This document shows, one piece after another, positions 2,517 through 40,917 of a DNA stretch of 64,000 nt. The stretch's first letter is position 1. Every line of letters begins with the position of its first letter. The notes beneath the pieces are model-generated. The model saw nothing but the letters and a program-made list of their open reading frames with translations, made no database searches and was not told where the DNA came from. Origin of the DNA: Deferribacterales bacterium (GTDB lineage Bacteria > Chrysiogenota > Deferribacteres > Deferribacterales > Geovibrionaceae). The stretch lies in assembly GCA_050251945.1 (NCBI GenBank), contig JBFWLW010000004.1, positions 203,821 to 267,820 of the forward strand, read 5' to 3'. The position numbers were made by a program, and so were the translations under genes.

Positions 2517-2538
2517 AATTAGCTCCTATTAGCTGAAA

Positions 2539-2606: not shown

Positions 2607-2613
2607 GATCTTA

Positions 2614-2958: not shown

Positions 2959-2968
2959 GTTGTTCTCC

Positions 2969-5401
<2,433 letters not shown>

Positions 5402-5451: not shown

Positions 5452-5467
5452 AGCAGTATGTGTGCCA
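5452..5467 (-). promoter_or_regulatory. sigma54 -24/-12 promoter of the anf operon
   Basis: Minus strand reads TGGCAC-ACATA-CTGCT, with GG-N10-GC spacing, about 70 nt upstream of anfH. Confidence 0.8.
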
Positions 5468-7043: not shown

Positions 7044-7925
7044 ATGGAGCTTAGAAATATCAGGGCGTTTGTGGAGGTTGTCAGACAGGGCGGATTTTCA
7101 AACGCCGCAAAAAAAGTCTTTGCAACTCAGTCAACCGTGAGCAAGGCTGTGAAACAGCTTGAGGACGAGCTTGGCGTTCTGCTTCTGGACAGGATAGGAC
7201 ACAGCTTTAAGCTGACGCAGGCAGGGGAGGTTGTGTTCAGACGCGGATGCACCATGCTTGATCAGGGCATTGAGATGCAGTCGGAGCTTGAGGAACTGAG
7301 CGGCATGAAGCGCGGCACACTGCGCATGGGTTTTCCGCTTCTGGGGAGCAACACACTTTTCGCGGATATTTTTGCAGTGTTCCGTCAGAAGTACCCTCAT
7401 ATCGAGATACAGATGGTTGAACAGGGCGGAAAAAGACTGGAAGAGATGCTCCTTGCGGGCGAGCTTGATCTTGCCGCGTCGCTTCTGCCTGTGGACAGTG
7501 CCGAACTGGACTGGCAGGAGGTTAGGAGCGAGCCTATGGATCTGCTTGTTGCGGACGATCACCCGCTGGCGGACAGTAAAAAGGTCGGTTTTGCAGACAT
7601 GAAAGAGTTTCCGTTCATACTGTACGCTCAGGGGTTCGCACTCAACCCCATGATACTGGAAGCCTGCAGAAGTAAGGGGTTTTCTCCTGCGATAGCGGCG
7701 CAGTCCAGCCAGATCGAGTTTATCATAGGTCTTGTGGCGGCGAAGCTTGGAATCGCTCTTCTGCCAAGAATGATAGCTGTTCAGCATCCGCACCCGAAGA
7801 CCGTGCTTATCCCCGTGGACAATCCTTCCGTTTTCTGGCGCATGGCTCTGATGTGGAGGAAAGGTGCTTATCTGCCGCCTGCCGCCCGTGCATGGCTTGA
7901 GCTTACGAAAACTCACTGGGGATAA
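7044..7925 (+). CDS. LysR-family regulator (CidR-like)
   Basis: N-terminal HTH FSNAAKKVFATQSTVSKAVKQLEDELG; 293 aa; divergent from lrgAB. Confidence 0.92.
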   Translation: MELRNIRAFVEVVRQGGFSNAAKKVFATQSTVSKAVKQLEDELGVLLLDRIGHSFKLTQAGEVVFRRGCTMLDQGIEMQSELEELSGMKRGTLRMGFPLLGSNTLFADIFAVFRQKYPHIEIQMVEQGGKRLEEMLLAGELDLAASLLPVDSAELDWQEVRSEPMDLLVADDHPLADSKKVGFADMKEFPFILYAQGFALNPMILEACRSKGFSPAIAAQSSQIEFIIGLVAAKLGIALLPRMIAVQHPHPKTVLIPVDNPSVFWRMALMWRKGAYLPPAARAWLELTKTHWG

Positions 7926-8328
7926 GTGTCACTGTCGTATTCCGGTTCCTATTAAGTAATGCAGAATTGGTTATATCTATAGATAAAATATGACTATAAA
8001 AATATATTTTATATTTGGAAGTGCAAAAAATATATTGCATAACCTATTAATACATTACGCTCATATGTTAATAATGCCTACCATTAATAGTTGCGGACAA
8101 ACATTAAATCTTTTCACATGCGTTATACCGGCATCCGTGATTCTCTGGTTTTCGGGTATGAGCAATAGGAAAACACAATATAAATTCTTGACAAATGGTT
8201 GAAATAAATATAACTAAAAATGAAGATAGTTCTTTAATATAAGTAATTCTGAGCATATGCTTTTTTAGTTTAAAAGCGTAACAATTTATTTGTTTTTTTA
8301 TTGGTAATCCACTTTTCAGAGGACTTTT

Positions 8329-9768
8329 ATGTCTAACTTATTGTCTGTTGACCCCGTCAGCCGTATTGAGGGACACATGAGTGTCAGCACGGCTGTTGAA
8401 GGAGGAAGGGTCTCAAAGGTTCGTATTGCCGGAAATATGTACCGCGGGCTTGAAAGACTCCTTTTGAACCGCCATCCTGTGGATTCGGCGCGCATTGCCC
8501 AAAGGGTCTGCGGAGTCTGCCACGAGGTGCACGGCATCTCCTCCATCACTGCATTGGAGCAGATATACAGAGTTGTGCCTCCCCACAACGGGCAGGTTCT
8601 GAGGGATATGATACTCGGACTGCACATCGTTACCGATCACCTTCTCCACTTTTACAATCTCTGTTCCCCCGACTACATAGACTACTCAGCCGCCGCCGGA
8701 TATTCCGGAAGGGATGCCGAAATGAAGAATATATCCGATTGGATAAGTTCTTCCGGCACAAAGTTTGTCATCAACAAGACCCCCGGCGACTACATAAAGG
8801 ACAAAGGAACCGCGAGGCGCTTTGCCCTGCATTATTTTCAGGCGCTTAAAATACGCGCGGAGGCGGCTTCCGGTCTGGCGCTCATCGGCGGAAAGGTTCC
8901 CTTTATCCACGCGCTTTTGCCGGGCGGGATCACAACGGAGATAACTCCCGACACGCTCATGAGATACTACCGAGTTCTTACGGAAACGACGGATTTTGTG
9001 AACAACGCGCTCATCCCCGACGTTATGGAACTTGCGGAGCGTTATCCTGAGTATTTCAAAATCGGCGGCGCATACGATACATTTTACGCGCACGACTCCC
9101 TTAAATATAAGAAAGGATACCTTTTCGCATCCGGTGTCATGATCGGCGGCGAAAAGCGTACTTTTGACTATAAGATGGTGAAGGAGCTTCTGAATTCTTC
9201 CTATTACAATCCCGACGGCAGCCCTAACGAATCCGCAAAGGGCGCATACAGCTGGATAAAGTCACCGCGCTATAACGGGTATCCCCTTGAAACTGGTCCC
9301 ATCGCCCGCGCGGCGTTGTCGAACGATGCAGGTTTCAGACAGCTTATCGCCAGATACGGTCAGAAATCCATCCGTTCATCGGTTATGACGAGACTTCTCG
9401 CCCGCGCATACGAATCGCGCAGAATATGCAACTATCTGTTTGAGCGTTCAGAGGATTTTGTTATAGGCAAACCCACCATAGCCCACGTTGACCTTCAGAA
9501 GAAGCTGACGGGTGAGGGCATCGGTTTTTCACTTGCCGCCCGCGGCGCGCTCATTCACCACATAAAGGCGTATGACGGAAGGGTCACAGATTATAAAATG
9601 ATAGTGCCGTCCACATGGAACTTCGGTCCCACGGCGGCAGGAAAGCACGGTGTTGCGGAGAAGGCGGTTCTTGGAACCCCTGTGCGTTTCGGCGGCGACA
9701 GCGGCTCAATAGAGGTCGGCAGGGTCATAAGAAGTTTTGACCCCTGCACGGCGTGTTCAGTTCATTGA
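8329..9768 (+). CDS. [NiFe]-hydrogenase large subunit, group 1a (HysA)-like, no C-terminal extension
   Basis: SRIEGH, RGLE, L1 motif QRVCGVCHEVH, ARGAL, PSTWN, and L2 motif FDPCTACSVH followed immediately by TGA. Confidence 0.93.
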   Translation: MSNLLSVDPVSRIEGHMSVSTAVEGGRVSKVRIAGNMYRGLERLLLNRHPVDSARIAQRVCGVCHEVHGISSITALEQIYRVVPPHNGQVLRDMILGLHIVTDHLLHFYNLCSPDYIDYSAAAGYSGRDAEMKNISDWISSSGTKFVINKTPGDYIKDKGTARRFALHYFQALKIRAEAASGLALIGGKVPFIHALLPGGITTEITPDTLMRYYRVLTETTDFVNNALIPDVMELAERYPEYFKIGGAYDTFYAHDSLKYKKGYLFASGVMIGGEKRTFDYKMVKELLNSSYYNPDGSPNESAKGAYSWIKSPRYNGYPLETGPIARAALSNDAGFRQLIARYGQKSIRSSVMTRLLARAYESRRICNYLFERSEDFVIGKPTIAHVDLQKKLTGEGIGFSLAARGALIHHIKAYDGRVTDYKMIVPSTWNFGPTAAGKHGVAEKAVLGTPVRFGGDSGSIEVGRVIRSFDPCTACSVH

Positions 9769-9778
9769 GGTGCGAAAG

Positions 9779-10738
9779 ATGCTGAGCAGAAGAGATTTCA
9801 TCAAAAGATGCAGAGATATATCGGTAGCGGTCATCGGAGCGGAAGTTTTTGCTGCGGATATAGCCGAAGGCTTTATGAGGATAGCGGCTTCAAAACGCCC
9901 TCAGATAGTTTTCGTTCAGGGGCAGAGCTGTACGGGCTGTTCCGTCTCCATGACATACGGCAACGAATCGGATTTTATAGATTTTGTGACGAGGCTTGTG
10001 AGGGTGCAGGTGCATCCGAACCTGTCGTTCAGTCAGGGACACGGCTACATACAGCAGCTTGAAGAGGTTACATCCGCAGGCGGTCACATTCTTGTGCTTG
10101 AGGGGAGCATCCCTCAGCGCATGAAAAAGGCATGCCTTCTGGGTGAAAAACCGCTTTATGATGCGCTTAAAAAACACATTCAGAAAGCTTATGCCGTTGT
10201 TGCCTGCGGAACCTGCGCGGTTTCCGGAGGGATACCCGCATCCGGCAGAAACGAGACCGGAGCCATAGACATCGAACAGTATATGCGCCAGTGCGGCATA
10301 AGCAAGCCGCTGATAAAGATTCCCGGCTGTCCGGCACACCCCGACAGGCTCATGGGAACGGTGGCATACATTCTGGGCAGCGGCAAGATGCCTCCCATGA
10401 AGGACGGCGTACCACAGCAGTATTTCGGAAACCTCATCCACAACAACTGCGGGCGATTTCAGTATTTTTCACAGGATATCTACCTTAAAGATTTTGAGAC
10501 CGATAAACACTCCTGTCTTCTGAAAAAAGGATGCAGAGGCACCATAACAAAATCCGACTGCCCCACTAGGCGCTGGAACGGAGGCGTCAGCGTCTGCGTT
10601 GAAAGCAACGCCCCCTGTGTCGGCTGTACGCATAACGGATGGCCTTTCAAAGAGAATATCTATTACGAATCGCGGAACATAGAAGACCTTCCGTGGACAG
10701 ACTTCAAAAAGAACGTGCTGGGGATGGGTAAGAAATGA
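9779..10738 (+). CDS. [NiFe]-hydrogenase small subunit with Tat signal peptide
   Basis: ATG at 9779 after RBS GAGGTG; MLSRRDFIK twin-arginine motif; CTGCS, GTC, PGCP, HNNC, CLLKKGC and [23 protein letters not shown] cluster motifs; no C-terminal TM helix. Confidence 0.93.
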
Positions 10739-12654
10739 TAAACATGGCTAAAAAATACCGCTTATCTCTTAAACACAAGATGGCGATAGCAACCGTTTTG
10801 ATCATTGCGTTCACCATCTTAGGCACCATCATCTTTGAGAATATTAAACTCAGGATGATTGAGAAATCCCTCAACAGATACATGAACTACCTCAAGGACA
10901 TGATATATATGTCCACCTTTGATGCTCTTAAAAAGGGAAACATGATGACGTTCAACAATCTTATTGAGGAGATTGGAAAATATGAGGACGTCACCGAGTT
11001 TTCACTGATAAAGCCTGACGGAACAATCACCTATTCGTCACAGGGTAACCGGGTCAACACAAAAGTGGATACCGCTATCCTTACCGACAGAGAGGACATG
11101 CACCCTGAAGGCGACAACAACGTCTATCTGTTTCCTGTAAAAACCATCGGTTACTGCATGCGCTGTCATACGGAATGGGAAGAAGGCGGAATTAATTCGT
11201 ATTATTACGTTAAACTCAGCAGGAAATCACTGAACAACGTTCAGAACATGTCTATGGTATCGGACATATTCGTGATAATAAGCGGCTGTCTGATGATATT
11301 CATCATATATTTCCTCGTGTCGAAACTTGTCATACGCAACGTCGGCAAACTTCAGGACACTATTGTACAGGCGGCGGAAAACCTTGACCTCAGCCTTGAA
11401 TCGGATATCAGAACCAACGACGAGATGGGCGAGATATCCGACAGGTATAACAAGTTCATGCGCGTTATAGGAAACGATATACTGCATACGTTCAGATCTA
11501 TTTCAAATATGATGGAACAGGCGCTTCCGCTGACGCTGACCACCATGCAGATAAAAGAGATGAACACCGAAACCATGCGTCTTGCCGGAGAGGTTGCGAC
11601 CGCCAGCGAGGAAATAAGCGCTACCGTGCGGGATTCTGCGGAGAACATAAGCGATTCGTCGGTTAAGGCGGAACGAACCCTTGAAATGTCCAAGAAAGGA
11701 CTTGAGGTTATGCTGGAGACCACGGCGATATCAACCGAGGTTGGAAATATAGTCAGTCTGCTCGCAGGGGAAATGAACGAGCTTCTCGGTTCCTCCAAAG
11801 AGGTGGGGGATATCGTTATGGTTATTACCGATATTACGGAGCAGACAAATCTTCTGGCGCTTAACGCCGCCATAGAAGCTGCAAGAGCCGGCGAAGCGGG
11901 ACGCGGATTCTCTGTTGTTGCGGACGAGGTTCGCAAACTGGCAGAGAAAACGAACGAGTCGGCTTCCAACATATCAAGCGTTGTTAAGGCTATGCAGACG
12001 AAGGTTCAGAGCGCAGTCAACAACGCCGATGACGTAATGAAAAAGGTCAGCGTTCAGCTTGAAAGGGTTAACGATGCCAACGATAAATTCATGACAATAC
12101 AGTCTTCCGTGGAAGACCTCAGCGCCAATATGACACACATATCATCTTCCGTTCAGCAGCAGTCTGCGGCAATGACCCAGATAGCGGCGAATATCGACGA
12201 GGTTGCCCGCATGAGCGACGCCAACTCAGGCAGCATAGACGCTATGGTGGGCGGTGTTGAAACGGTTGTGGGGCTTCTTGACGAATCGGAGAAAGAACTT
12301 AAAAAATTCACTCTCCAGTCTGTCGTTCTGCCGGTGATACATGCGAAGGTAAGTCATGTGCTTATGACCAAGAACATATATCACGGAGCGATGTATAAAA
12401 AACCTGTGAGCCTTGATAGTTATGATAACTGTGCTTTCACGGAGTTTTATAAAGGACGCGGTCGTGAGACGTTCGGAAGCGATCCTGAATACAGAGAGAT
12501 AGAGACGGTTCACAGATCCCTGCATGACACTGCGGAAAAGATCCGCGGCAGGATATCCAGAGGGGAGTCTGTATCGGATGATCTGGAGACCCTGCAAAGG
12601 CTTACGGAAAAGCTGGTTTCTCTTATGAACGGATTGATTGATAGATATATGTAA
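10735..12654 (+). CDS. Methyl-accepting chemotaxis protein: TM - periplasmic CxxCH heme-c sensor - TM - HAMP - MCP signal - CZB
   Basis: ATGA overlap with the small-subunit stop; CMRCH at 11155-11169 between two TM helices; [32 protein letters not shown] hairpin; C-terminal H...C...HxxxH CZB ligand pattern. Confidence 0.9.
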
Positions 12655-12663
12655 AGAACTCTA

Positions 12664-12701
12664 AGGGCAGTCGGCAGGAAACACCGATTGCCTTTTTTTT
12701 T
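12664..12701 (+). terminator. Intrinsic terminator closing the hydrogenase-MCP operon
   Basis: AGGGCAGTCGG/CCGATTGCCTT hairpin followed by a T-run. Confidence 0.75.
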
Positions 12702-12704
12702 CAG

Positions 12705-14099
12705 CTAATTATTAGGTTTGTCAATGTTTTTCAGGAGCTTGTGGAGGGTTTGGCGGGTGATGCCCAGAATCCTTGCGGCATCGGTTATATTCCCCTTGCT
12801 GTGGTTTAAGGCGGAGGAGACCAGAATAGATTCCATCTTTTTTATAGTGGGGAAGTCTCCCGCGTAATAAAACGGTTCAAAGAGGTGTTCTTTTGCCCCT
12901 GTACGCGGATTTATATCGTGTCTGCGCATGAAGGATATCATGTCGCGGCTGCCGAGTTTTCTGCCGCGCGTAATCATCGCGAGGTCATTCATTATAGCCT
13001 GTAACTGGCGCACGTTTCCCGGAAAGCTGTAGTTTCTCAGAATATCGCCGATCCCCTGCGGCAGTGCCGCCGCCATCTGACATCCCGATTCCAGAAGCGC
13101 CTTGTTGTAAAAATTCAGCGCCAGAAGCTCTATGTCGTCCTTTCTGTCGCGCAGAGGCGGTATTGTTATGCAGTGGGTTGATATCCGGAAAAGCAGGTCT
13201 TTTCTGAATTTTCCGGCTTTAACGTTGTTTTTAAGGTTAACACTAGTTGCGGCTATGATACGCACGTTGGCTTTGACGTTGCGGTCGGTTCCCAGCGGCA
13301 TGTAGACCTTTTCCTGAAGGAGACGCAGAAGTTTTATTTGCGCAGATTCGTTAAGGTCGCCGATTTCGTCCAGAAAAAGAGTTCCGTTCTCAGCCTCAGC
13401 CACAAGCCCTCTGCGGGTCTTGTCCGCCCCCGTGAAGGCTCCTTTTGCATGACCGAAGAGAGTGTCGGTGAACATGTTGTCGTCCAGACCGGAGATGTTT
13501 ACGGCGACGTAGGGACCTTTCTGCCCGCTTGCCTTATGAACCGCCTCCGCAAAAAGTTCCTTGCCTGTTCCGGTTTCTCCCGTGATAAGAACGGGGAAGG
13601 TACTTTCAGAGACGAAGTTCAGATACCTGAATATTTCAAGCATCTTGCTGTTGCATGTTATTATATTGTCGAAAAAGGAATTGCGTTCGATGTCGCCTAC
13701 GTTTTGTACCGTGGGTTCTGAGCTGTATCTTTTGTAAACCTCAAGCGCTCTGAGTATCACTTCGGCAAAGCTGTCCTTCTCCACAGGTTTGACAACGAAG
13801 CTTACCGCGCCCTTTTGAAGGCATCGCACTGCTGATTCGGTCTCGTTCTTTTCTATCATCATCACAACAGATGTTTGCTGAAACCGATGCGCAATGATGC
13901 CAAGCATTTCTTCACCATTCTGATGCGGCATATTCATATCGAGAAGAATAATGGCAGGATCAATCTTATCAGAGCTTTTAAGAAATTCTCTCGGATCATT
14001 GTAAGTTAGTATGTCTGTCACCCCTAACTGTCTGAGGTAACGGACATACATGTCGGTCAGTTCTTTTTCATCGTCAATTATAACAACTTGTGAGATCAT
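12705..14099 (-). CDS. sigma54-dependent response regulator (REC-AAA+-HTH, NtrC family)
   Basis: IDD...LLDMNMP...VKP receiver, GETGTGKE Walker A, GAFTGA, LFLDEIGD Walker B, Fis-type HTH. Confidence 0.92.
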   Translation of the reverse strand: MISQVVIIDDEKELTDMYVRYLRQLGVTDILTYNDPREFLKSSDKIDPAIILLDMNMPHQNGEEMLGIIAHRFQQTSVVMMIEKNETESAVRCLQKGAVSFVVKPVEKDSFAEVILRALEVYKRYSSEPTVQNVGDIERNSFFDNIITCNSKMLEIFRYLNFVSESTFPVLITGETGTGKELFAEAVHKASGQKGPYVAVNISGLDDNMFTDTLFGHAKGAFTGADKTRRGLVAEAENGTLFLDEIGDLNESAQIKLLRLLQEKVYMPLGTDRNVKANVRIIAATSVNLKNNVKAGKFRKDLLFRISTHCITIPPLRDRKDDIELLALNFYNKALLESGCQMAAALPQGIGDILRNYSFPGNVRQLQAIMNDLAMITRGRKLGSRDMISFMRRHDINPRTGAKEHLFEPFYYAGDFPTIKKMESILVSSALNHSKGNITDAARILGITRQTLHKLLKNIDKPNN

Positions 14100-14786
14100 G
14101 TAAAGTCACGACAGAGGAAAATATTCTGCTCCTCATACCCCTATTTATATTGCATCTATCTGATACAGTTTTATTAAATCAAAACCGCATATGCTGGTCA
14201 CTTAATAATCCTAATAAGGTGAACTTGCTCTTAAATTGACTTGTATGCATATTAGCAGAAGCCAGAAAAAAAAGCAGTTTTATCAGGGTTGCAATTGTTC
14301 TTACTACCAAACATTATGCCAATATTGCCAGAAGACCATCATTCAGTAGTTTAATTAGTTATATAATCGTCTGTAATGAGGCGTTAACAAAGTTTTTAGA
14401 TTGTTCAGTTAATTCAAAAAATGCATAAACCGGTCACACACCGTGCTGAACAAGGCGGGATTTTTTGTCTGAATGAGATTTTCATTACAAACAGCATTGC
14501 ATAATTGAATAGTGGTTCTTTGTCTGATACTGATTTTTTTTCTGCATTTTTCTGTGAGATATTTGATATTGTTTCTGAAATTCTGAAATAGCTTATAAAT
14601 AAAATAATCGCTGTCTGCGCACCCGGAGGTGCGTAAATAGTGCCTTTTTGTGTCATTTTCTGCATTCTCCGCGGGGATTCCGGTTCCATGAAAATATTGA
14701 TACTGATTTCACTGTATATCCATAATTATTAGTTGAAATTTATATTATACGCAACGGATTATTTGATGGATTCTGTTTTGTGTAAC

Positions 14787-14862
14787 TGTAAATTATTTTT
14801 ACACACTATGATTTTACCTGTGTTGTCTGATGATTAGATAAGTACTGTATCATATTTTTACA
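14787..14862. promoter_or_regulatory. Two candidate enhancer sites TGTA-N9-TACA
   Basis: TGTAAATTATTTTTACA (14787-14803) and TGTATCATATTTTTACA (14846-14862), both followed by CAC, upstream of the sigma54 promoter. Confidence 0.45.
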
Positions 14863-14914
14863 CACATGGACATTTTGAAAACACGGAACACCCTCTAAAC
14901 AATGTCCAATGGTT

Positions 14915-14930
14915 TGGCACTGTTATTGCA
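14915..14930 (+). promoter_or_regulatory. sigma54 -24/-12 promoter of the chemosensory operon
   Basis: TGGCAC-TGTTA-TTGCA, a perfect match to the consensus. Confidence 0.88.
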
Positions 14931-15121
14931 TGGAAATATGGATACTAAATGGAGGGTTTTATTAATAGGCTGTGAACCGGATATTCAAACAGGGTGAATA
15001 AGCAGTTGTAGGCTTTTTTGATATTAATTATTCTATTGTACTTATTTTATAAGGCTGATTAAAAAACCTGTCCGGCATCAAGAGTTTATTTATGAGACCA
15101 CGCGATAATGGAGTCTTATTG

Positions 15122-16336
15122 ATGAGTCTGTTTGACAGAAAAAAACTTGCGCTGCTGGTCATTCTTATAATCATTCAGGCAGCGGTAATTTGCCTTGATA
15201 CCCTGCATATCCGTCTTTTGGCGAGTATCCCTGTGCTTATTCTTACTGCGTTCATGCTGCACGCTGTTGCGAAGGATGCGCTTGAAAACGTGAAGACCGA
15301 CCGCGAAAACAATCTTGTGGGTCAGCTGGAAGTTATAAACAAAGGTCTGGTGCCTGTAAGTTCAATAGTGGCTGATTATTCGTCCATAATAACTGTTTTT
15401 CAGGAACAGATGAAAAAGGTCATTGCCGACAGCGAGGAAGCTAACAATATCATTTCCGGAAATTTCGGCAGGATAGCGGAAAAAGCAACCGAGCAGTCAG
15501 ACGAAGCCGGACGCGCACTTGACAGCTTTACTTCTGAGAAAACCGGGAAGCGGGGCGGTAATTTTGTAGATATCAGCCGTAAAGCTCTGATTTCTGTCAT
15601 AAGTGAACTGGAACAAACGGGAGAATACGCAATAGAAACCAACATCCAGCTTTCGGGTGTTATTGATGAGATACAGGGAATAAAAGAGATAGTTTCCAAT
15701 GTCGAATATATAGCCGATCAGACAAACCTCCTTGCGCTGAACGCCGCTATCGAGGCGGCGCGTGCAGGCGAACACGGCAGAGGCTTTGCCGTTGTTGCCG
15801 ACGAGATACGCAAGCTCTCTGAAAAATCAAATAAATTTGCATATGAAATACGCGTGGCAGTGGACGATATCGCCGGAAAGATAAACCACATACACGATAA
15901 ATCCGTTGAGGATGCGGACAGTATTAAGGTCACATCCGCCAAATCCCATGAAGATGTGGATAACGCACTGAACATTCTGGACAGAGCCATTGAAAATGCC
16001 AATTCCATAATGGCAGGGCTGAAACAAAGCTCTATCAAGCTTGCAGGGGATATCAACGACATGGTGGTCTCCATGCAGTATCAGGACATCAACAGACAGC
16101 GTCTTGAACACGTCATCGACCCCATGGATATCATGAAGAATGATCTCGGAAGGATATCGGTGGGACTGCGCGATGTTTCAAACATGGATTTCAGTTCGGA
16201 GCTTAAGAGTCTGAGTGATCATGTGAAAATGCTCTATACCATGGAATCGGAAAGAAAGGTTATGAAAGACAGGTCGGCAGGACAGGCAGGGGTTATATCC
16301 GCCTCGTCAAGAGACGACAATGTCGAACTATTTTAA
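15122..16336 (+). CDS. Methyl-accepting chemotaxis protein (short N-terminal TM hairpin, C-terminal pentapeptide NVELF)
   Basis: [30 protein letters not shown] signal hairpin; MQYQD motif; ends DDNVELF. Confidence 0.9.
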
Positions 16337-16353
16337 GTCTGCGGGGGATCAAA

Positions 16354-16701
16354 GTGAATATAGAAACAACAGTTAACGACGGCAAAACAGTTATTGATAT
16401 CTCAGGAAACCTGACAGTCAGCTATGTAGTTGAACTGCATTCACATTTACGGGAGGCGCTTCAGGAATCCGATGCTGTGGAGATAAGGATAGGGAAGGTG
16501 GATAATGCCGACCTTACGCTTCTGCAGCTGCTCTGTTCCGCGCACAGGGCTGCGCTTTCCAAAGACAAACGCTTTGATGTCACAGGCAATAAGAACGAGC
16601 TTCTAAGCATGGACTGTTTCGCCGGATTCACCAGAGAAAAAGGCTGTGTGATTGATAAATACAACAACTGCGCACTGGTCAAGGAGAGATCAAATGTCTA
16701 A
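16354..16701 (+). CDS. STAS-domain protein of the chemosensory operon
   Basis: 115 aa; ISGNLTV...VDNADLTLLQLLCSAHR STAS pattern; directly upstream of cheY. Confidence 0.82.
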   Translation: MNIETTVNDGKTVIDISGNLTVSYVVELHSHLREALQESDAVEIRIGKVDNADLTLLQLLCSAHRAALSKDKRFDVTGNKNELLSMDCFAGFTREKGCVIDKYNNCALVKERSNV

Positions 16702-17059
16702 AACAATTCTGTCTGTTGATGATTCCGCCAGCATCCGCCAGATGGTGAAATTCACCCTTGTTAAAGAGGGCTACAACGTCTTGGAGGCGTGCGACGGAAA
16801 GGACGCTCTGGCAAAGACCGCAGGCGTAAAATGCGACATGGTGATAACCGACCTTAACATGCCGAACATGGACGGCATTACACTCATAAAAGAGCTTCGG
16901 CAGAAGCCGGAGTTTCGTTTCGTTCCCATCATAATGCTTACAACCGAATCACAGGATTCAAAAAAACAGGAGGGCAAATCCGCCGGCGCAACCGGATGGA
17001 TAGTTAAGCCGTTCAAACCCGAACAGCTTGTTTCAGTAGCAAAAAAGGTTCTGGGGTAA
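16694..17059 (+). CDS. cheY: Chemotaxis response regulator CheY
   Basis: Single receiver domain: VDDS, ITDLNMPNMDG, MLTTES, WIVKPF. Confidence 0.92.
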   Translation: MSKTILSVDDSASIRQMVKFTLVKEGYNVLEACDGKDALAKTAGVKCDMVITDLNMPNMDGITLIKELRQKPEFRFVPIIMLTTESQDSKKQEGKSAGATGWIVKPFKPEQLVSVAKKVLG

Positions 17060-17062
17060 GAT

Positions 17063-19126
17063 ATGTCATTGGATTCCAACCAGCAGGTATTCATAAATGA
17101 GGCTACGGAGCTTTTGCAGGAGCTTGAGGAGTCCCTTCTGGAGCTTGAAAATACTCCGGACAGCTCAGACCTGATAGCCCGTGTGTTCCGTGCCATGCAC
17201 ACTATAAAAGGTTCCGGCGCAATGTTTGGCTTTGACAATATTGCGTCGCTGGTTCACAGCATCGAAACGGCATACGATATGGTGCGCAATAACACCATGT
17301 GCGTGACAAAGCCGATGCTGGATTATTCGCTGAAAGCGTGCGACATAATCCGCGAGATGCTCGCAGACCCTGATATAAAAGCTGATTCTCCGCTGGCGGT
17401 GGAAATAACAGGTTATTTCAGCCGCGCGGCAAACATACAGGATCAGAAACAGCCTGATGTGCAGCCGGAGAGGGATTGCACCGCCCGGGGGGAGCTGCAC
17501 ACCTTCAGGATAACTTTTAAACCTTCCCTGAACGTCTTCATGAACGGCACCAATCCCGCTCTGCTTCTTAAAGAACTGCGCGAGATGGGTTCCGCAACCA
17601 TTGTCACCCACGTTTCCGATATCCCCGGTTTAGACGAGATTGAACCGGAGAAATGCTATTTATCGTGGGACATAATACTGACAACCGACAAAACAGAGAA
17701 TGACATACTGGACGTTTTTATATTTGTGGAAGACGACGCGGTGATAAACATAAGTGCCGTGGACGAGGCGTTTGACGACCGCGAAAAGAAGCTCGGCGAG
17801 ATTCTTCTGGAGCGCGGATGTCTCACGGAAAGCCAGCTTGGCGATGTTCTGAACGAAAAGAAGCGTCTGGGCGAGATAATGGTCGAAAAAGGGCTTGTCT
17901 CCGCAGAGGCTGTTGACACTGCTCTTATGGAACAGGCACATGTGAAGAACATGCAGGAGAAAAAGGCACACGCTTCGGAGACGGCATCTTCAATCAGGGT
18001 GCCTTCGGAAAGGCTTGATTCTCTGGTGGATCTCGTTGGCGAGCTTGTAACGGTGCAGGCGAGATTAAGTCAGGTTGCGGCGCATAAAAACGATGCGGAT
18101 ATGCTTAAGGTGGCTGAGGAGGTTGAACGCCTCGTCTGGGAACTCAGAGACAACACCATGAGCATCAGGATGCTTGAGATAGGTTCAACTTTCAACAGAT
18201 TTAAGAGACTGGTTCGCGATCTGTCGATTGAACTGGGCAAAGAGATCGAGCTTGTCACTTTCGGCGGCGAGACTGAAATCGACAAGACCGTTATAGAAAA
18301 GCTGGGCGACCCGCTGGTGCATCTTATAAGAAACAGCATTGACCACGGAATCGAAAAGCCGGAGGAGAGGATTGCGGCAGGCAAACCCGCCAAAGGGCAT
18401 ATCACCCTTCAGGCAAGCCATTCCGGCGACAGCGTGCTTATCGAAATAACGGACGACGGCAGAGGAATAAACAGGAAAGCCGTACTTGAAAAAGCAAAGT
18501 CAAAAGGGCTTGTTGCTGAAAATGCGGAGCTTTCCGACAGAGAAATATATGAACTGTTATTCGCTTCGGGTTTTTCAACGGCGGCGAGCGTTTCCAGTGT
18601 TTCCGGAAGGGGCGTGGGGATGGACGTTGTGCGGAGGAACATCGAGGCTTTGCGGGGCGCGATTGAGATAAACAGCTCGGAGGGAGCGGGAACGACAATC
18701 GTTCTTAAACTCCCGCTGACGCTGGCGATCATCGACGGCCTTCTTGTGACCATCGGCGGACAGTTCTTCATACTTCCGCTGTCCATTGTCAACGAGTGCA
18801 TCGAATTCAACCGCTCCGAGAACAAAAGCGGTTCGGGGCGCAAGATTATCATGGTGCGCAACGAACTTGTTCCCTATGTCCCGCTTCGCAGTTTTTTCAA
18901 TATCAAAGGCGATGAACCGGAGATACAGCAGATCGTTATTATCAGCGTCGACGGCAGACGCGTGGGATTTGTTGTGGACAGTGTGGTGGGCGACCACCAG
19001 ACGGTTATCAAATCTCTGGGTAAAGCGTTCAAGGATATCGACTGCATATCCGGCGCATCGGTTCTCGGCGACGGCTCGGTGGCTCTGATCATAGATATTA
19101 TGAAAATCTACAATGATATAGGTTAA
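17063..19126 (+). CDS. cheA: Chemotaxis histidine kinase CheA with a tandem MshEN-like insert
   Basis: Hpt FRAMHTIKGS, LVHLIRNSIDHG, DDGRG, SGRGVGMDVV and a C-terminal CheW domain. Confidence 0.95.
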   Translation: MSLDSNQQVFINEATELLQELEESLLELENTPDSSDLIARVFRAMHTIKGSGAMFGFDNIASLVHSIETAYDMVRNNTMCVTKPMLDYSLKACDIIREMLADPDIKADSPLAVEITGYFSRAANIQDQKQPDVQPERDCTARGELHTFRITFKPSLNVFMNGTNPALLLKELREMGSATIVTHVSDIPGLDEIEPEKCYLSWDIILTTDKTENDILDVFIFVEDDAVINISAVDEAFDDREKKLGEILLERGCLTESQLGDVLNEKKRLGEIMVEKGLVSAEAVDTALMEQAHVKNMQEKKAHASETASSIRVPSERLDSLVDLVGELVTVQARLSQVAAHKNDADMLKVAEEVERLVWELRDNTMSIRMLEIGSTFNRFKRLVRDLSIELGKEIELVTFGGETEIDKTVIEKLGDPLVHLIRNSIDHGIEKPEERIAAGKPAKGHITLQASHSGDSVLIEITDDGRGINRKAVLEKAKSKGLVAENAELSDREIYELLFASGFSTAASVSSVSGRGVGMDVVRRNIEALRGAIEINSSEGAGTTIVLKLPLTLAIIDGLLVTIGGQFFILPLSIVNECIEFNRSENKSGSGRKIIMVRNELVPYVPLRSFFNIKGDEPEIQQIVIISVDGRRVGFVVDSVVGDHQTVIKSLGKAFKDIDCISGASVLGDGSVALIIDIMKIYNDIG

Positions 19127-19138
19127 AAGGAGGGTTTT

Positions 19139-21031
19139 ATGTTTAAAAATCTGAAGATCGGCGTAAAGCTGATGCTCGGGTTCGGTCTTGTCATTGCTCT
19201 TACGCTTATCGTGGGACTTGTGGCATACAACGGACTTAATGTTGTTCTTAACGGCGCAAAATATTCAGACGCTCTGGCAACAATGTCCGGCACTCTGAAA
19301 GACGCCAGGCAGCAGGAGAAAAACTACATAATCAGACACGACGAAGCTGCTGCGGAAAAGGTTTCATCCAGTATTGAAGATATCAGGAAACTGGCTGAGG
19401 AAACAAAAGCATTTTCCAATGAAAAACAGGATGCCGCTGTTGCATCCATAGTCAAAAGCACTGAAGACTATCTGGCAGCCTTCACGGAATATGTGAAAGT
19501 TCAGAAAGACCTTGAAAAAAGCTGGAACGTGATGGCGCAGGACGCCGTAAAGGTTCTGGACAAGCTGAAAGGTCAGAGCGTTGATGCGAAAGTGTCCATG
19601 GATATATGGGCGATACGTTCTCTGGTAAGGGATATCTATTACAACAACCAGCTTGAGAAGGCTTCGGAAGTCAACAGCATCTACGATGATATAGAGCGCA
19701 GATTGACGGAACTTGAAGACAAGTCGGTTCTTGAATCAATAAATTCTTACAGAAATGGGCTTGGCGACGTTATAAACGGCAAAAAGCTTCAGGTTACTCT
19801 CGACGAAAAAATGGTTAATGCCGCACGGGAAGCCGGCGATGCCACAAACAAGGAGAACACAGCCAGCACGGAAGCTATGCTTGCCGCGTTTAAATCCGTC
19901 ACTACTATGATAATTATTATAATCCTCGGTGCCGTGATAATCGGTATTATTGCCGCAATAGTCATAACGAAAGGCATCACAGGACCCGTTTCAAAAGGCG
20001 TCGGTTTTGCGATAGAACTTTCCGGCGGAAATCTGGATGCGAAACTGGATATCGACCAGAAAGATGAGGTCGGTCAGCTTGCCGAAGCACTTAAAAACAT
20101 GGTTGATAAGCTGAGAAGCATCATAACAGACGTGCGCGTATCGGCAGACAACGTTGCCATAGGAAGCCGCGAACTTTCAAGCGCCGCACAGGATATGTCT
20201 CAGGGCGCAACGGAACAGGCGGCAAGTGCGGAAGAAGCCTCTGCATCTATGGAAGAGATGGCATCAAACATCAACCAGAACGCCGACAATGCACTTCAGA
20301 CTGAAAAGATAGCACTTAAAGCGTCCGGCGACGCGAAAGAGGGCGGCGATGCTGTTCAGAAGACCGTAAAAGCTATGAAGGATATAGCCGACAAGATATC
20401 CATCATAGAAGAGATAGCCCGCCAGACAAACCTTCTGGCGCTCAACGCGGCTATCGAAGCGGCAAGAGCCGGCGAACACGGCAAAGGATTCGCCGTTGTG
20501 GCATCCGAGGTTCGCAAACTTGCAGAACGCAGTCAGGAAGCGGCGCGTGAGATAAGCGACCTTTCCTCATCCAGCGTGGACATAGCAGAGAAAGCAGGCG
20601 GACTGCTTATGCAGATACTTCCGGACATCCAGAAAACGTCCGAGCTTGTTCAGGAGATAACTGCATCCAGTGCCGAAATGCGCACAGGCGGCGAGCAGAT
20701 AAACACTGCCATCCAGCAGCTTGATCAGGTGATACAGAAAAATGCGGGCGCATCAGAAGAGATGGCGGCAACTGCGGAAGAACTTTCCAGCCAGTCAGAG
20801 GCGCTTCAGCAGGCTGTTTCGTTCTTTAAAATGAAATCAGACAGCGGTGCGAAAAGTGTTCAGGCTCCGAAAACAGCCAAAAAACCTTCGTCCGCACCCG
20901 TAAAGCATTTTGAAAAACCTGTTTTTCCGCACCACGGCAAGAAAAACGGAGGAAAAGAGGGAGAGGGTATAAACCTCGACATGACCGACGGTAAAAAAGA
21001 CCGCCTCGACACAGATTTTGAAAGCTTCTAA
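19139..21031 (+). CDS. Methyl-accepting chemotaxis protein with helical (HBM-like) periplasmic sensor and pentapeptide DFESF
   Basis: Two TM helices, ARQQEKNY motif, HAMP, signal hairpin; ends DTDFESF. Confidence 0.9.
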
Positions 21032-21042
21032 GGCGGTGTGCA

Positions 21043-21552
21043 ATGGAAGATAGAATTAACGGAAATGACAATATAAGTCAGGTGCTTACGTTCCAACTGG
21101 CGGAAGAGGTATACGGAGTGGACATTATGTCTGTTCGCGAGGTGCTGGATTTTTCCAGTGTTACCAAAGTGCCTCACACCCCCGATTTTATGGTGGGGGT
21201 GATAAACCTGCGCGGGAACGTTGTTCCGGTTGTTGACCTTAAAAAGAAATTCCGTCTGGGCGACACGGAAAGAACAGTAAACACCTGTATCATCATCGTT
21301 GAGGTGGTGATAGACGATGAATCCACCGTACTCGGCGCACTTGCCGATTCCGTTCAGGAGGTCGTCGAGTTTGAACATGAAACCATTGAGGATGCGCCGC
21401 GTATAGGGACGCATCTCAACACAGCCTTCATCGCGGGAATGGCGAAGAAGGACAACGGTTTCGTAATAATTCTTGATGTGAACGCCGTTTTCTCCATGAC
21501 GGAGATAGGAACCTACAACGGCGTTGCGGCAGAGCTTGCCGCGGGACAATAG
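21043..21552 (+). CDS. cheW: CheW coupling protein
   Basis: YGVDIMSVREV and GVINLRGNVVPVVDL motifs. Confidence 0.95.
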   Translation: MEDRINGNDNISQVLTFQLAEEVYGVDIMSVREVLDFSSVTKVPHTPDFMVGVINLRGNVVPVVDLKKKFRLGDTERTVNTCIIIVEVVIDDESTVLGALADSVQEVVEFEHETIEDAPRIGTHLNTAFIAGMAKKDNGFVIILDVNAVFSMTEIGTYNGVAAELAAGQ

Positions 21553-21559
21553 AACGGCA

Positions 21560-22423
21560 ATGGACACCACTGTATATTCTGATGCAGACATCTACGGACA
21601 AAAACTGACATCCGCCGAGTTCACCAGAATACAGGCGTTCATTCATGATAACTGCGGAATAAAACTCCCCGTCACCAAAAAAAACATGGTGGAGGGGAGA
21701 CTCCGCAAACGGCTTAAAACGCTTGGTTTAGGCTCATATACGGAATATCTGTCTTTTGTATTTGAAAGCTCCGATCCGGCTGGAGACGACGAAAAACTGA
21801 GGCTCATTGACGCCATCACTACCAATAAGACGGATTTCTTTCGTGAGCCTAACCATTTTGCCTATCTCACTGAAAAACTGCTTCCGCTTTTTACAGCGGA
21901 GGGCGCCGGAATAAAGCGCTGTCTGAACGTCTGGAGCAGTGCATGTTCCACAGGCGAGGAACCCTATACCCTTGCAATGGTTCTTGCAGAATTTTTCGGT
22001 ATCGACGGCAATTTCCGCGTATATGCCAGCGACATAAACTGCACGGTGCTTGAAAGGGCAGTCAGCGGAATCTATCGCATGGAAAAGATAGCGACTGTGC
22101 CTGCCGACCTTAAAAAAAAGTATCTCATGCGCTCAAAAACCGACAGAACTCTGGTGCGTATAAGACCTGAGCTGCGTGAAAAAGTCTCCTTCGGTCGTCT
22201 GAATCTGATGGACGACGTTTACCGTTTGCCTGTTCAGATGGATATCTCATTCTGTCGTAATGTCATTATATATTTCGACACTGAGACCCAGCAGAATATC
22301 ATAAACAGGATATGCGCCGCCACCGCGCCTGACGGCTATGTTTTTCTTGGTCATTCGGAATCGGTACACGGCATGAAGATAGCCGCCAGACCCATTGCCC
22401 CGACCATACTCAAAAGGATATAA
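21560..22423 (+). CDS. cheR: CheR methyltransferase
   Basis: TTNKTDFFRE, WSSACSTGEEPYT, FCRNVIIYF and LGHSES motifs. Confidence 0.95.
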   Translation: MDTTVYSDADIYGQKLTSAEFTRIQAFIHDNCGIKLPVTKKNMVEGRLRKRLKTLGLGSYTEYLSFVFESSDPAGDDEKLRLIDAITTNKTDFFREPNHFAYLTEKLLPLFTAEGAGIKRCLNVWSSACSTGEEPYTLAMVLAEFFGIDGNFRVYASDINCTVLERAVSGIYRMEKIATVPADLKKKYLMRSKTDRTLVRIRPELREKVSFGRLNLMDDVYRLPVQMDISFCRNVIIYFDTETQQNIINRICAATAPDGYVFLGHSESVHGMKIAARPIAPTILKRI

Positions 22424-22424
22424 A

Positions 22425-22958
22425 ATGCTTTACAGCATAGGCTGTGTCTATCTCAAACCGGGTGAAATCTATTTCAGCGATGTTCCTGCCGTGGTCAATA
22501 CGGTTCTGGGTTCGTGCGTAAGCGTTACTATGTATGCTCCGCGTCTGCGGGCTGGAATAATAAGTCACTGTGTTCTTCCCACGGCTCTGGGCAGCATCAG
22601 GCGCGGTGAGGACGCAATGAAATACGTCGACTGTGCGCTTCTCTATATGCACAAAAAGATGACCTCAACCGGAGCTGACAAGCGCGAGACAGAGGTGAAG
22701 ATGTTCGGCGGAAGCACCATGTTCGGTATTGAAAACGGAGAGAACAGCATTGGAACGAAAAATGTTTCAGCCTCCGTGTCGCTGCTTCGTGGTCTTGGTT
22801 ACTGTATCGTGAAAAGCGATACCGGAGGCAACTTTACAAGAAATCTTTCCTTCAATGTCGGAAGCGGCGTTGTTAATATCAAAAGAACAACCAACTTTTC
22901 TGACGATTCTCACCACAGTTCAATAGGCGTCAAAAGGCTTTCTGCTTTTCCTGAATGA
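22425..22958 (+). CDS. cheD: CheD glutamine deamidase
   Basis: TVLGSCVSV (catalytic Cys), HCVLP, KMFGG and DTGG motifs. Confidence 0.9.
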   Translation: MLYSIGCVYLKPGEIYFSDVPAVVNTVLGSCVSVTMYAPRLRAGIISHCVLPTALGSIRRGEDAMKYVDCALLYMHKKMTSTGADKRETEVKMFGGSTMFGIENGENSIGTKNVSASVSLLRGLGYCIVKSDTGGNFTRNLSFNVGSGVVNIKRTTNFSDDSHHSSIGVKRLSAFPE

Positions 22959-40907: not shown

Positions 40908-40917
40908 GACAAAACCC

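What the first reader, a model, noticed from the sequence alone, without database searches (positions are those of the whole stretch)
9736..9805. Hydrogenase large subunit ends at DPCTACSVH with no cleavable extension, yet its partner is Tat-exported
Seen: TGA directly follows the L2 His and overlaps the small-subunit RBS; the gene order is large then small. Established: exported group 1 enzymes normally carry a C-terminal extension removed by a specific endopeptidase, while extension-less large subunits are typical of regulatory (HupV/HoxC) and some energy-converting enzymes. Inference: the group 1 framework has converged on a regulatory-type architecture, which supports a sensory role. Also unusual: the L1 motif reads CGVCHEVH (usually CPxxH) and the canopy segment reads LAARG (usually EAPRG).
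Basis: partly seen in the sequence, partly recalled or inferred. Interest (0 to 1): 0.65.

Follow-up and report, generated by a model that had tools for sequence, protein, structure and literature searches.

The report
Periplasmic hydrogen sensor wired to chemoreceptor
The oddly truncated hydrogenase is real and belongs to a conserved three-gene module (hydrogenase large subunit, exported small subunit, haem-carrying chemotaxis receptor) that most likely lets the bacterium sense hydrogen gas outside the cytoplasm and swim accordingly, a kind of receptor I could not find described.

Summary
The large subunit (8329-9768) ends at DPCTACSVH-TGA. The small subunit (9779-10738) follows it and carries a twin-arginine signal. 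L1 reads CGVCHEVH and the canopy reads LAARG. Contigs from four metagenomes show the same TGA.

The missed part is the third gene (10735-12654), which overlaps the small-subunit stop (ATGA). It is a methyl-accepting chemotaxis protein. Its roughly 140-residue periplasmic domain, between two membrane helices, carries one CxxCH haem-c motif.

Large subunit, then small subunit, then this sensor domain recurs in 26 of 26 complete related loci from three phyla. A reverse search starting from the sensor motif found the hydrogenase pair directly upstream in 31 of 33 loci where it could be scored. The output end varies: chemoreceptor, PAS-GGDEF or PAS-histidine kinase. All 95 relatives at 41% identity or more that contain L2 lack the tail. 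Of the 21 nearest conventional relatives, 19 have a 14-15-residue tail.

Best reading: a Tat-exported hydrogenase derived from the group 1 lineage oxidises periplasmic H2 and reduces the receptor's haem, which sets chemotaxis signalling. This is inferred, not shown. It is not HydDB group 2b or 2c. I found no prior description.

The parts
8329..9768 (+). [NiFe] hydrogenase large subunit, 479 aa, no C-terminal extension
   Evidence: PF00374 at 1.1e-91. The best NCBIfam match is NiFeSe_hydrog at 399 bits, below its cutoff of 600. RIEGH, the four Ni-Fe cysteines and the canopy Arg are kept.
8509..8532 (+). L1 motif CGVCHEVH
   Evidence: Verified. It is conserved in the tail-less clade. 1a-like relatives read CPxxH.
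9532..9546 (+). Canopy segment LAARG (Arg kept, Glu and Pro replaced)
   Evidence: HoxC reads EAARG.
9739..9768 (+). L2 motif DPCTACSVH followed directly by TGA
   Evidence: The same stop is seen in contigs from four metagenome runs.
9767..9772 (+). Shine-Dalgarno-like GAGGTG for the small subunit, overlapping the large-subunit stop
9779..10738 (+). [NiFe] hydrogenase small subunit, 319 aa
   Evidence: PF01058 plus PF14720. All proximal and distal cluster ligands are present. An extra Cys in the medial motif predicts a [4Fe-4S] cluster. There is no C-terminal membrane anchor.
9779..9871 (+). Predicted Tat signal peptide: SRRDFIK, h-region, and A-E-G before the predicted cleavage site
   Evidence: The twin Arg, h-region and A-x-[AG] are conserved in all 29 family small subunits read. 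They align with the HoxK signal. HoxB has none.
10735..12654 (+). Methyl-accepting chemotaxis protein, 639 aa; its start overlaps the small-subunit stop (ATGA)
   Evidence: MCPsignal at 6.9e-44 and CZB at 6.1e-07. The overlap was verified.
10840..11259 (+). Periplasmic sensor domain between TM1 (about aa 16-35) and TM2 (about aa 176-197)
   Evidence: Hydropathy. There are 15 invariant residues across 21 homologues. Pfam matches to Tll0287-like and Cache are weak. A low-confidence model resembles extracytoplasmic PAS/Cache sensors.
11155..11169 (+). CMRCH, the single haem-c attachment motif
   Evidence: Present at the same position in all 26 complete partner proteins and in L036-L038. The two other MCPs in the window have none.
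11737..12213 (+). MCP signalling domain
12355..12543 (+). C-terminal chemoreceptor zinc-binding (CZB) domain; cytoplasmic, a possible second input
   Evidence: Found only in the window's sub-clade.
15092..22958 (+). Nearby chemotaxis operon (MCP, STAS, CheY, CheA-CheW, MCP, CheW, CheR, CheD); the likely downstream pathway
   Evidence: A perfect sigma-54 box lies at 14915-14930. Its link to the module is inferred from proximity only.

Best explanation
The three genes encode a periplasmic hydrogen receptor.

1. The large subunit matures in the cytoplasm without the usual proteolytic checkpoint. It binds the small subunit and is carried across the membrane on the small subunit's twin-arginine signal.
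2. In the periplasm the soluble heterodimer docks on the PAS/Cache-like domain of the chemoreceptor. That domain carries one covalently bound c-type haem.
3. H2 oxidation sends electrons through the three Fe-S clusters to that haem.
4. The haem's redox or ligation state changes the conformation of the sensor domain. The change passes through TM2 to the MCP signalling domain and sets CheA activity, giving taxis along H2 gradients.
5. Re-oxidation of the haem by periplasmic acceptors would reset the sensor.

Sister modules put the same sensor domain on a diguanylate cyclase or a histidine kinase.

Shown by sequence: the gene anatomy, the conserved synteny, the Tat and haem motifs, and the intact catalytic and Fe-S ligands. 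Inferred: export, haem loading, electron transfer as the signal, and the behavioural output.
For: - **Forward synteny.** LSU-SSU-transducer is found in 26 of 26 complete family loci from Deferribacterota, Thermodesulfobacteriota and Aquificota.
- **Reciprocal test.** Scanning genomes for the sensor motif alone gave 35 loci. 33 could be scored for both subunits, and 31 of them have LSU and SSU directly upstream. L064 is cut within SSU. The two orphans sit in genomes that also hold a full module.
- **One sensor, three outputs.** The same sensor domain is fused to MCP, PAS-GGDEF or PAS-HisKA outputs.
- **Topology.** The CxxCH motif and 15 invariant residues, including Met70, lie between two TM helices.
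- **Tat signal.** The twin-arginine motif, h-region and A-x-[AG] site are conserved in all family small subunits down to 41% identity.
- **Translational coupling.** The small-subunit stop and the MCP start overlap as ATGA.
- **No respiratory or maturation partners.** The 64 kb window has no cytochrome b, HybA, endopeptidase or hyp gene. Tail-bearing relatives have an endopeptidase gene nearby, and those checked by gene calls also have a catabolic partner.
- **Second-sphere changes shared with HoxC.** These are the canopy Pro to Ala change and the Pro before the conserved Asp.
- **Neighbourhood.** A che operon starts about 2.4 kb downstream.
Against: - There is no experimental or transcript evidence, and no RNA runs were found.
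- The sensor fold rests on a pLDDT-57 model and on sub-threshold Pfam hits. The window's own domain hits nothing. The profile finds no solved haem sensor by sequence.
- The catalytic machinery and the Val/Leu gas-channel residues look like those of a working uptake enzyme, so turnover for energy cannot be excluded.
- How a tail-less large subunit acquires nickel and passes Tat proofreading is not known to me.
- The deep phylogenetic position is unresolved.
Confidence: 0.65

Rival explanations
1. It is an ordinary periplasmic uptake (energy-conserving) hydrogenase of the 1a lineage. It hands electrons to soluble periplasmic cytochromes. The neighbouring haem MCP only monitors periplasmic redox state (energy taxis) and is not a dedicated partner.
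For: The best matches are catabolic NiFeSe/1a enzymes. The catalytic residues, Fe-S ligands and open gas channel are intact. Deferribacterota have many c-type cytochromes (my own knowledge).
Against: The sensor domain is found almost only directly behind this hydrogenase: 31 of 33 scorable loci. The genes overlap. The partner switches between MCP, GGDEF and HK while the hydrogenase stays. No membrane or cytochrome partner gene is present in the window, unlike the tail-bearing relatives checked by gene calls.
Confidence: 0.15
2. The hydrogenase signals by protein contact rather than by electron transfer. H2 binding or the redox state of the hydrogenase changes its conformation. That change is read by the sensor domain, while the haem senses a different cue such as redox potential, O2 or NO.
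For: The RH-HoxJ sensor works as a stable complex (my own knowledge). The haem-c MCP domains of DcrA and GSU0582/GSU0935 are thought to sense redox state or gases (my own knowledge). The window MCP also has a second sensory domain, CZB.
Against: A complete three-cluster wire with the surface-exposed distal His ligand is kept in every member read. That would not be needed for contact signalling. The haem motif is invariant in all partners.
Confidence: 0.12
3. The twin-arginine motif is a relic. The complex is cytoplasmic, like group 2b sensors, and touches the cytoplasmic part of the receptor.
For: Extension-less large subunits are otherwise known from cytoplasmic enzymes (my own knowledge). 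HoxC ends at the His.
Against: RR, the h-region and the A-x-[AG] site are conserved across three phyla and down to 41% identity. A relic would decay, and HoxB has lost the signal entirely. The conserved family-specific domain of the partner is the periplasmic one, and haem c is attached only outside the cytoplasm.
Confidence: 0.04
4. It is an artefact: the TGA is a sequencing or assembly error, or the gene is a pseudogene.
For: None found.
Against: The stretch is identical in contigs from four runs, one at about 185x. All 95 relatives that contain L2 end at the same His. The downstream RBS and ATG are correctly spaced.
Confidence: 0.01

Closest known systems
Group 1a periplasmic [NiFe]/[NiFeSe] uptake hydrogenases (e.g. 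Desulfovibrio vulgaris HysAB, PDB 5jsu)
   Same: Closest in sequence: 241 bits by phmmer, with the best NCBIfam models NiFeSe_hydrog and HysA. It shares the Tat signal on the small subunit, the group-1-type L2 (DPCxxCxxH with A/S-V/I), and the extra Cys that predicts a [4Fe-4S] medial cluster.
   Different: It has no C-terminal extension and no endopeptidase gene. The gene order is reversed. There is no respiratory partner. L1 reads CHEVH, the canopy reads AARG, and GHW is replaced by IHH. It scores below the curated family cutoffs (399 against 600). Its partner is a signal transducer.
Group 2b regulatory hydrogenases (HoxBC of Cupriavidus necator, HupUV)
   Same: It has an H2-sensor logic, with a hydrogenase coupled to a signalling protein. 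The large subunit ends at the L2 His. It shares the canopy Pro to Ala change and the Pro before the conserved Asp.
   Different: HoxB has no Tat signal and has a long C-terminal peptide. HoxC has L2 DPCMVCTVH, L0 RVEGD, L1 CGICSVSQ and a Phe in the gas channel. Its order is SSU then LSU. Its partner is a soluble PAS kinase without haem c. Identity is only 30.6%, and there is no bootstrap support for a sister relationship.
HydDB [NiFe] group 2c, 'diguanylate cyclase-linked (putative)'
   Same: It is a putative H2 sensor coupled to c-di-GMP enzymes. One sub-clade of the present family is GGDEF-linked.
   Different: As quoted by Flood et al. 2016 (PMC4853749), group 2c has the L2 consensus SFDxCLVCTVH. 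It is described as cytosolic, written hupS-hupL, and found in methylotrophs and sulfate reducers. The present family has DPC[TL]AC[SA][VI]H, a Tat signal and LSU-then-SSU order.
Haem-c periplasmic sensor MCPs (Desulfovibrio DcrA; Geobacter GSU0582/GSU0935, PDB 3b42/3b47; Pfam Tll0287-like and Mcp40H-20_sensor)
   Same: It has the same architecture: two TM helices, a periplasmic PAS-like domain with one CxxCH motif, and an MCP output.
   Different: Sequence similarity is only sub-threshold. The known examples are not reported next to a hydrogenase (my own knowledge). They are thought to sense redox state or gases directly.
[FeFe] hydrogenase group C2, 'chemotactic (putative)' (HydDB, PMC5037454)
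   Same: It embodies the same idea of a hydrogenase feeding a methyl-accepting chemotaxis protein.
   Different: It is an unrelated enzyme class and is cytoplasmic. No periplasmic haem relay is involved.

Membership tests
[NiFe] hydrogenase heterodimer | Large subunit with L1 and L2 cysteine pairs; small subunit with ligands for three Fe-S clusters | tested here: met
   PF00374, PF01058 and PF14720 all match. The motifs and ligands were read in alignments.
Group 1 (1a) respiratory uptake hydrogenase | Tat signal peptide on the small subunit | tested here: met
   SRRDFIK, an h-region and A-E-G are present, conserved in all family members read, and align with the HoxK signal. No dedicated Tat predictor was available.
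Group 1 (1a) respiratory uptake hydrogenase | C-terminal extension on the large subunit, removed by a dedicated endopeptidase | tested here: not met
   The tail has zero residues. There is no endopeptidase gene in the 64 kb window. Conventional loci have one.
Group 1 (1a) respiratory uptake hydrogenase | Operon partner that feeds the respiratory chain (cytochrome b, HybA/B, cytochrome c3) | tested here: not met
   The third gene is an MCP. No cytochrome b homologue is present. The relative P0100 has Ni_hydr_CYTB.
Group 1 (1a) respiratory uptake hydrogenase | Score above the curated family thresholds, or robust phylogenetic placement | tested here: inconclusive
   NF033181 scores 399 against a cutoff of 600, and HysA scores 302 against 780. 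The clade itself has 100/100 bootstrap support, but its position among the groups is unresolved. The HydDB classifier was not available.
Group 2b regulatory hydrogenase | Large subunit without a C-terminal extension | tested here: met
Group 2b regulatory hydrogenase | Cytoplasmic small subunit without a Tat signal and with a C-terminal peptide for kinase binding | tested here: not met
   The Tat signal is present and the C-terminus is short.
Group 2b regulatory hydrogenase | Group 2 L2 (CxVCTVH) and narrowed gas channel (Ile/Phe) | tested here: not met
   The window reads CTACSVH, with CGVC (Val) and HFYNL (Leu). HoxC reads CMVCTVH, with CGIC and HFYLF.
HydDB group 2c | L2 consensus SFDxCLVCTVH | tested here: not met
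   The window reads SFDPCTACSVH. The consensus is taken from PMC4853749. The primary paper (Greening 2016) was not held.
Haem-c PAS-like periplasmic sensor domains (Tll0287-like / GSU0582-0935 type) | Single CxxCH motif in a periplasmic domain between two TM helices | tested here: met
Haem-c PAS-like periplasmic sensor domains (Tll0287-like / GSU0582-0935 type) | Significant profile match or PAS-like fold | tested here: inconclusive
   PF11845 matches 8 of 21 homologues at best 1.7e-4, and the window's own domain matches nothing. There is no PDB sequence hit. The pLDDT-57 model best matches WalK, KinD and CitA sensors; 3b42 ranks 18th with TM 0.30.
Haem-c PAS-like periplasmic sensor domains (Tll0287-like / GSU0582-0935 type) | Covalently bound haem | not testable with these tools
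   This needs a haem stain or mass spectrometry of the expressed domain.

The most novel reading that the evidence does not exclude
This is an unclassified clade of [NiFe] hydrogenases derived from the periplasmic group 1 lineage. It has lost the C-terminal maturation checkpoint and serves only as the H2-detecting head of membrane transducers, to which it is wired through a covalently bound c-type haem. The MCP-linked members, including this one, would be the first molecularly defined hydrogen chemoreceptors in Bacteria. The HK- and GGDEF-linked sisters would be periplasmic H2 sensors controlling transcription and c-di-GMP.
Probability: 0.55. Interest if true: 0.9.

Novelty: new variant of a known kind. 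Interest (0 to 1): 0.8.

Why it matters
- **An open question becomes testable.** The papers I could search report H2 taxis only in Methanococcus maripaludis, with no receptor identified (PMC3817446). A 2025 study of a sulfate reducer still calls for work on how cells sense H2 (PMC12004927). This module is a concrete receptor candidate, and it occurs in cultured strains.
- **The picture of sensory hydrogenases changes.** Sensory hydrogenases are described as cytosolic in the sources I could read and, to my knowledge, generally. This family would place H2 sensing in the periplasm.
- **Maturation rules may need revising.** A Tat-exported [NiFe] enzyme would be able to mature without the C-terminal extension and its endopeptidase.
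- **A signalling principle.** One redox sensor head would be reused for three signalling outputs.
- **Possible application.** The enzyme and its haem domain could serve as a compact H2 biosensor.

Tried and rejected
- **Homology searches with the sensor domain.** Two searches, one with the single sequence and one with the 21-sequence profile, returned nothing at E <= 0.001. The domain's spread in the large protein database is therefore unknown. The genome scan replaced them.
- **Structure prediction from the alignment.** The single-sequence model is weak, at pLDDT 57.
- **Profile search against PDB sequences.** It gave only chance hits.
- **Promoter and terminator scan of 7900-15100.** It was at chance level. 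No sigma-54 box lies upstream of the large subunit.
- **RNA runs.** None were found.
- **Primary literature on the classification.** Greening et al. 2016 is not held. The HydDB supplements do not list these organisms.
- **Literature searches.** Ten searches, including protein accession numbers, found no description of a [NiFe] hydrogenase-MCP module. An 11th attempt failed on a query-syntax error. A 2025 neighbourhood survey lists MCPsignal among genes near [NiFe] hydrogenases in a table and does not discuss it in the passages retrieved.
- **Idea that the family equals HydDB group 2c.** Rejected on the L2 motif and gene order.
- **Idea that HoxC is its sister group.** Rejected; bootstrap support is 1-2 of 100.
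- **Idea that the L1 and canopy changes define the sensor role.** Rejected because of P0105, P0107 and P0154.
Full report
**1. The observation.** The ORF at 8329-9768 encodes a 479-residue [NiFe] hydrogenase large subunit (PF00374, E 1.1e-91). Its last nine codons (9739-9765) read DPCTACSVH and are followed at once by TGA (9766-9768). GAGGTG at 9767-9772 overlaps the stop, and an ATG at 9779 opens the small subunit (PF01058 plus PF14720). The order is therefore large subunit then small subunit.

The small subunit begins [31 protein letters not shown]|[23 protein letters not shown]. This lines up position for position with the Tat signal of the membrane-bound hydrogenase subunit HoxK of Cupriavidus necator, which ends in AHA before the mature N-terminus. 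The cleavage of the HoxK signal is from my own knowledge. The cytoplasmic sensor subunit HoxB has no such region. L1 is CGVCHEVH (8509-8532) and the canopy segment is LAARG (9532-9546). Every element of the finding is present at the stated place.

**2. Not an error and not chance.** Contigs of a landfill-metagenome run, at about 185x word depth, are identical to the window over 9300-9817. Three further runs from landfill, groundwater and wastewater cover the stop without any change or indel. These are assembler contigs, not raw reads, so rare variants cannot be excluded. A consensus error can be.

The family evidence is stronger. Among the 120 best database relatives, the 97 proteins at 41% identity or more form one group. 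Two of them are truncated. The other 95 all end at the L2 His. All that cover the motifs read C-H-E-[VA]-H in L1 and A-[ASG]-R-G in the canopy. At about 35% identity the picture switches to CPxxH and x[PA]RG, and 19 of 21 proteins have a 14-15-residue tail. This tail-less clade has 100/100 bootstrap support in a neighbour-joining tree.

The small-subunit stop overlaps the start of the next gene (ATGA at 10735-10738). That gene (10735-12654) is a methyl-accepting chemotaxis protein with an MCPsignal domain (E 6.9e-44) and a C-terminal CZB zinc-binding domain.

The protein has a basic N-terminus, then TM1 (about residues 16-35), a roughly 140-residue external domain, and TM2 (about residues 176-197). 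The external domain holds the only CxxCH motif of the protein, CMRCH at residues 141-145. The whole 639-residue protein has just four cysteines. CxxCH is the attachment site for c-type haem, which is attached only outside the cytoplasm (established knowledge). The two other MCPs in the window have no such motif.

**4. The triad is conserved, in both directions.**

- *Forward test.* A scan of one genome per species with the large subunit gave 30 family loci from Deferribacterota, Thermodesulfobacteriota and Aquificota. L001, a Seleniivibrio MAG, is 99% identical, so the window comes from that or a very close lineage. Every locus with enough contig has large subunit, small subunit, then a partner: 26 of 26 complete partners. 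Each partner has two TM helices and one CxxCH about 35 residues before TM2.
- *Sensor alignment.* Twenty-one sensor domains share 15 invariant positions: L65, K67, G68, N69, M70, F73, E88, L91, Y100, S101, S102, C141, C144, H145 and W148.
- *Reverse test.* Scanning the same collection with only the sensor motif [TAS]xD[SA]L[KR]KGNM gave 35 loci. One of them (L064) is cut by its contig end within the small subunit. One more (L027) was not re-run, but one search had already shown it to carry the pair, with its large subunit cut at the contig end. Of the 33 loci scorable for both subunits, 31 have the pair immediately upstream. The two orphans are a sensor-PAS-GGDEF-EAL protein and a sensor-HAMP stub. 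Both lie in genomes that also hold a complete module.
- *Variable output.* The output end is MCP in most lineages, PAS-GGDEF in a Denitrovibrio sub-clade (L026), and PAS-HisKA-HATPase in Desulfuromonadales (L036, L058, L060-L065).
- *Distant tail-less relatives.* More distant tail-less large subunits with ordinary active-site motifs are also followed by a small subunit and then an MCP (P0105) or a kinase (P0107). P0098, which has a 6-residue tail, is followed by an MCP. The partner next to P0105 and the one next to P0098 were read and carry CxRCH.

**5. The nearest relatives with a tail are conventional.**

- P0100 has small subunit, large subunit, cytochrome b, HycI endopeptidase and HypA.
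- P0113 and P0117 have small subunit, large subunit, DUF5981 and MTHFR. P0113 also has a faint HycI endopeptidase match, and P0117 has divergently placed hypC, hypD and hypF genes.
- L031, L033 and L035 each have an endopeptidase gene just after the large subunit.
- The 64 kb window has no endopeptidase, hyp, cytochrome b or HybA-type gene.

Loss of the tail, reversal of gene order and gain of a transducer therefore go together.

**6. The enzyme looks competent.**

- *Large subunit.* RIEGH (the proton-transfer Glu), the four Ni-Fe cysteines, the canopy Arg and the Asp of xPD are all present.
- *Small subunit.* It keeps four proximal ligands, the distal His plus three Cys, and a medial motif with an extra Cys ([12 protein letters not shown]). 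That predicts a [4Fe-4S] cluster, as in NiFeSe enzymes and HoxB. It lacks the C-terminal anchor of HoxK.
- *Family-specific second-sphere changes.* These are CHEVHG in place of CPxxH, HFY(N/Q/T/H)LxxPDY in place of HFYHLxALD, AARG in place of EAPRG, and RGALIHH in place of RGxLGHW. Two of them are shared with the regulatory hydrogenase HoxC: the canopy Pro to Ala change and the Pro before the Asp.
- *Gas channel.* The residues stay Val and Leu, where HoxC has Ile and Phe.

The idea that these changes tune the enzyme for sensing is an inference. They are also not strictly tied to the sensor role. P0105 and P0107 lack them. P0154 has CHEVH together with a 17-residue tail and a ferredoxin-type neighbour.

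**7. Mechanism proposed.** The heterodimer is exported by Tat hitch-hiking. It docks on the haem-c domain of the receptor, oxidises H2 and reduces the haem. The haem's state is then transmitted through TM2 to the MCP signalling domain.

The sequence shows the topology, the motifs and the conserved coupling. Export, haem loading, electron transfer and the taxis output are inferred.

A low-confidence model of the domain (pLDDT 57) has a long N-terminal helix followed by a sheet. It best matches the extracytoplasmic PAS/Cache sensors WalK (E 8.6e-5, TM 0.51), KinD and CitA. The Geobacter haem-c sensor 3b42 ranks only 18th. Pfam gives sub-threshold matches to Tll0287-like (8 of 21 homologues), dCache_1 and Mcp40H-20_sensor.

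In the window a complete che operon starts about 2.4 kb downstream. It contains MCP, STAS, CheY, CheA-CheW, MCP, CheW, CheR and CheD, and is preceded by a perfect sigma-54 box. The nifHDK genes, whose product evolves H2, lie 3 kb upstream. Both links rest on proximity only.

**8. Comparison with known groups.**

- *Group 1a.* The enzyme is nearest to 1a/NiFeSe enzymes. phmmer gives 241 bits to D. vulgaris HysA. NCBIfam NiFeSe_hydrog gives 399 bits, below the cutoff of 600. Identity to 1a-like relatives is 35-36%. It fails three defining features of respiratory group 1 enzymes: the tail, the endopeptidase and the respiratory partner.
- *Group 2b.* HoxC is 30.6% identical and has a different L2 (DPCMVCTVH). 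HoxB has no Tat signal. There is no support for a sister relationship.
- *HydDB group 2c.* Its L2 consensus is SFDxCLVCTVH, and it is described as cytosolic and written hupS-hupL (PMC4853749). The present family does not fit.
- *HydDB classes.* The HydDB scheme lists a chemotactic class only for [FeFe] hydrogenases, group C2 (PMC5037454).

Ten full-text searches, including accession numbers, found no description of a [NiFe] hydrogenase-MCP module. A 2025 neighbourhood survey lists MCPsignal among genes near [NiFe] hydrogenases, in a table and without discussion in the passages retrieved. The corpus is open-access only, so a prior mention elsewhere cannot be excluded.

**9. Verdict.** The most likely identity is a periplasmic H2 receptor. 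Its core is a hydrogenase derived from the group 1 lineage that has lost its C-terminal extension, coupled through a haem-c sensor domain to a chemoreceptor. Sister modules drive a histidine kinase or a diguanylate cyclase. I rate it a new variant of a known kind (sensory hydrogenases) and of high interest. It gives a testable receptor for bacterial hydrogen taxis, and it is a natural case of a Tat-exported [NiFe] enzyme that does without the proteolytic maturation step.

Noticed in passing
window 14915-14930 (+), 12705-14099 (-), 15092-22958 (+): A perfect sigma-54 -24/-12 box (TGGCACTGTTATTGCA) sits just upstream of a che operon (MCP, STAS, CheY, CheA-CheW, MCP, CheW, CheR, CheD). An NtrC-type response regulator is encoded divergently next to it. 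A 1-mismatch box lies upstream of nifH at 5452-5467 (-).
   Followed up: partly
window 1125-5380 (-): nifK, nifD and nifH lie 3 kb upstream of the hydrogen-sensor module. Nitrogenase releases H2, so the proximity may or may not be meaningful.
   Followed up: no
window 36546-40937 (-): A single 1463-residue ORF fuses an AcrB-type RND pump (residues 14-1020) to an outer-membrane efflux protein (OEP) domain (residues 1052-1257). To my knowledge this fusion is unusual.
   Followed up: no
L016, L018-L020, L022-L024, L027-L030 (small subunits): Family small subunits from Thermodesulfobacteriota and Aquificota read C-[ST]-G-D in place of CTGC. The second proximal-cluster cysteine is replaced by aspartate.
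   Followed up: no
L053:3905-6583; L067:3388-4146: These are orphan copies of the haem-c sensor domain with no adjacent hydrogenase. One is a sensor-PAS-GGDEF-EAL protein; the other is a 252-residue sensor-HAMP stub beside a dCache kinase. Both genomes also hold a full module, so one hydrogenase may serve several transducers.
   Followed up: partly
L002+L013; L003+L007; L009+L026 (paralogues in one genome): Several genomes carry two copies of the module, about 50% identical, sometimes with different outputs. Denitrovibrio BM701 has one MCP-linked copy and one GGDEF-linked copy.
   Followed up: partly
window 12355-12543 (+): Only the window's sub-clade of partner MCPs (639 aa) adds a C-terminal CZB zinc-binding domain with an intact His/Cys pattern. 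This suggests a second, cytoplasmic input to the same receptor.
   Followed up: partly
L041:234-1670 (P0154); L040:2082-3533 (P0130): P0154 has the CHEVH L1 motif but keeps EAPRG, a 17-residue tail and a ferredoxin-type neighbour. P0130 is tail-less but sits in an SSU-then-LSU operon with MTHFR and FTHFS genes. The L1 motif and loss of the tail have therefore each arisen outside the sensor clade.
   Followed up: partly
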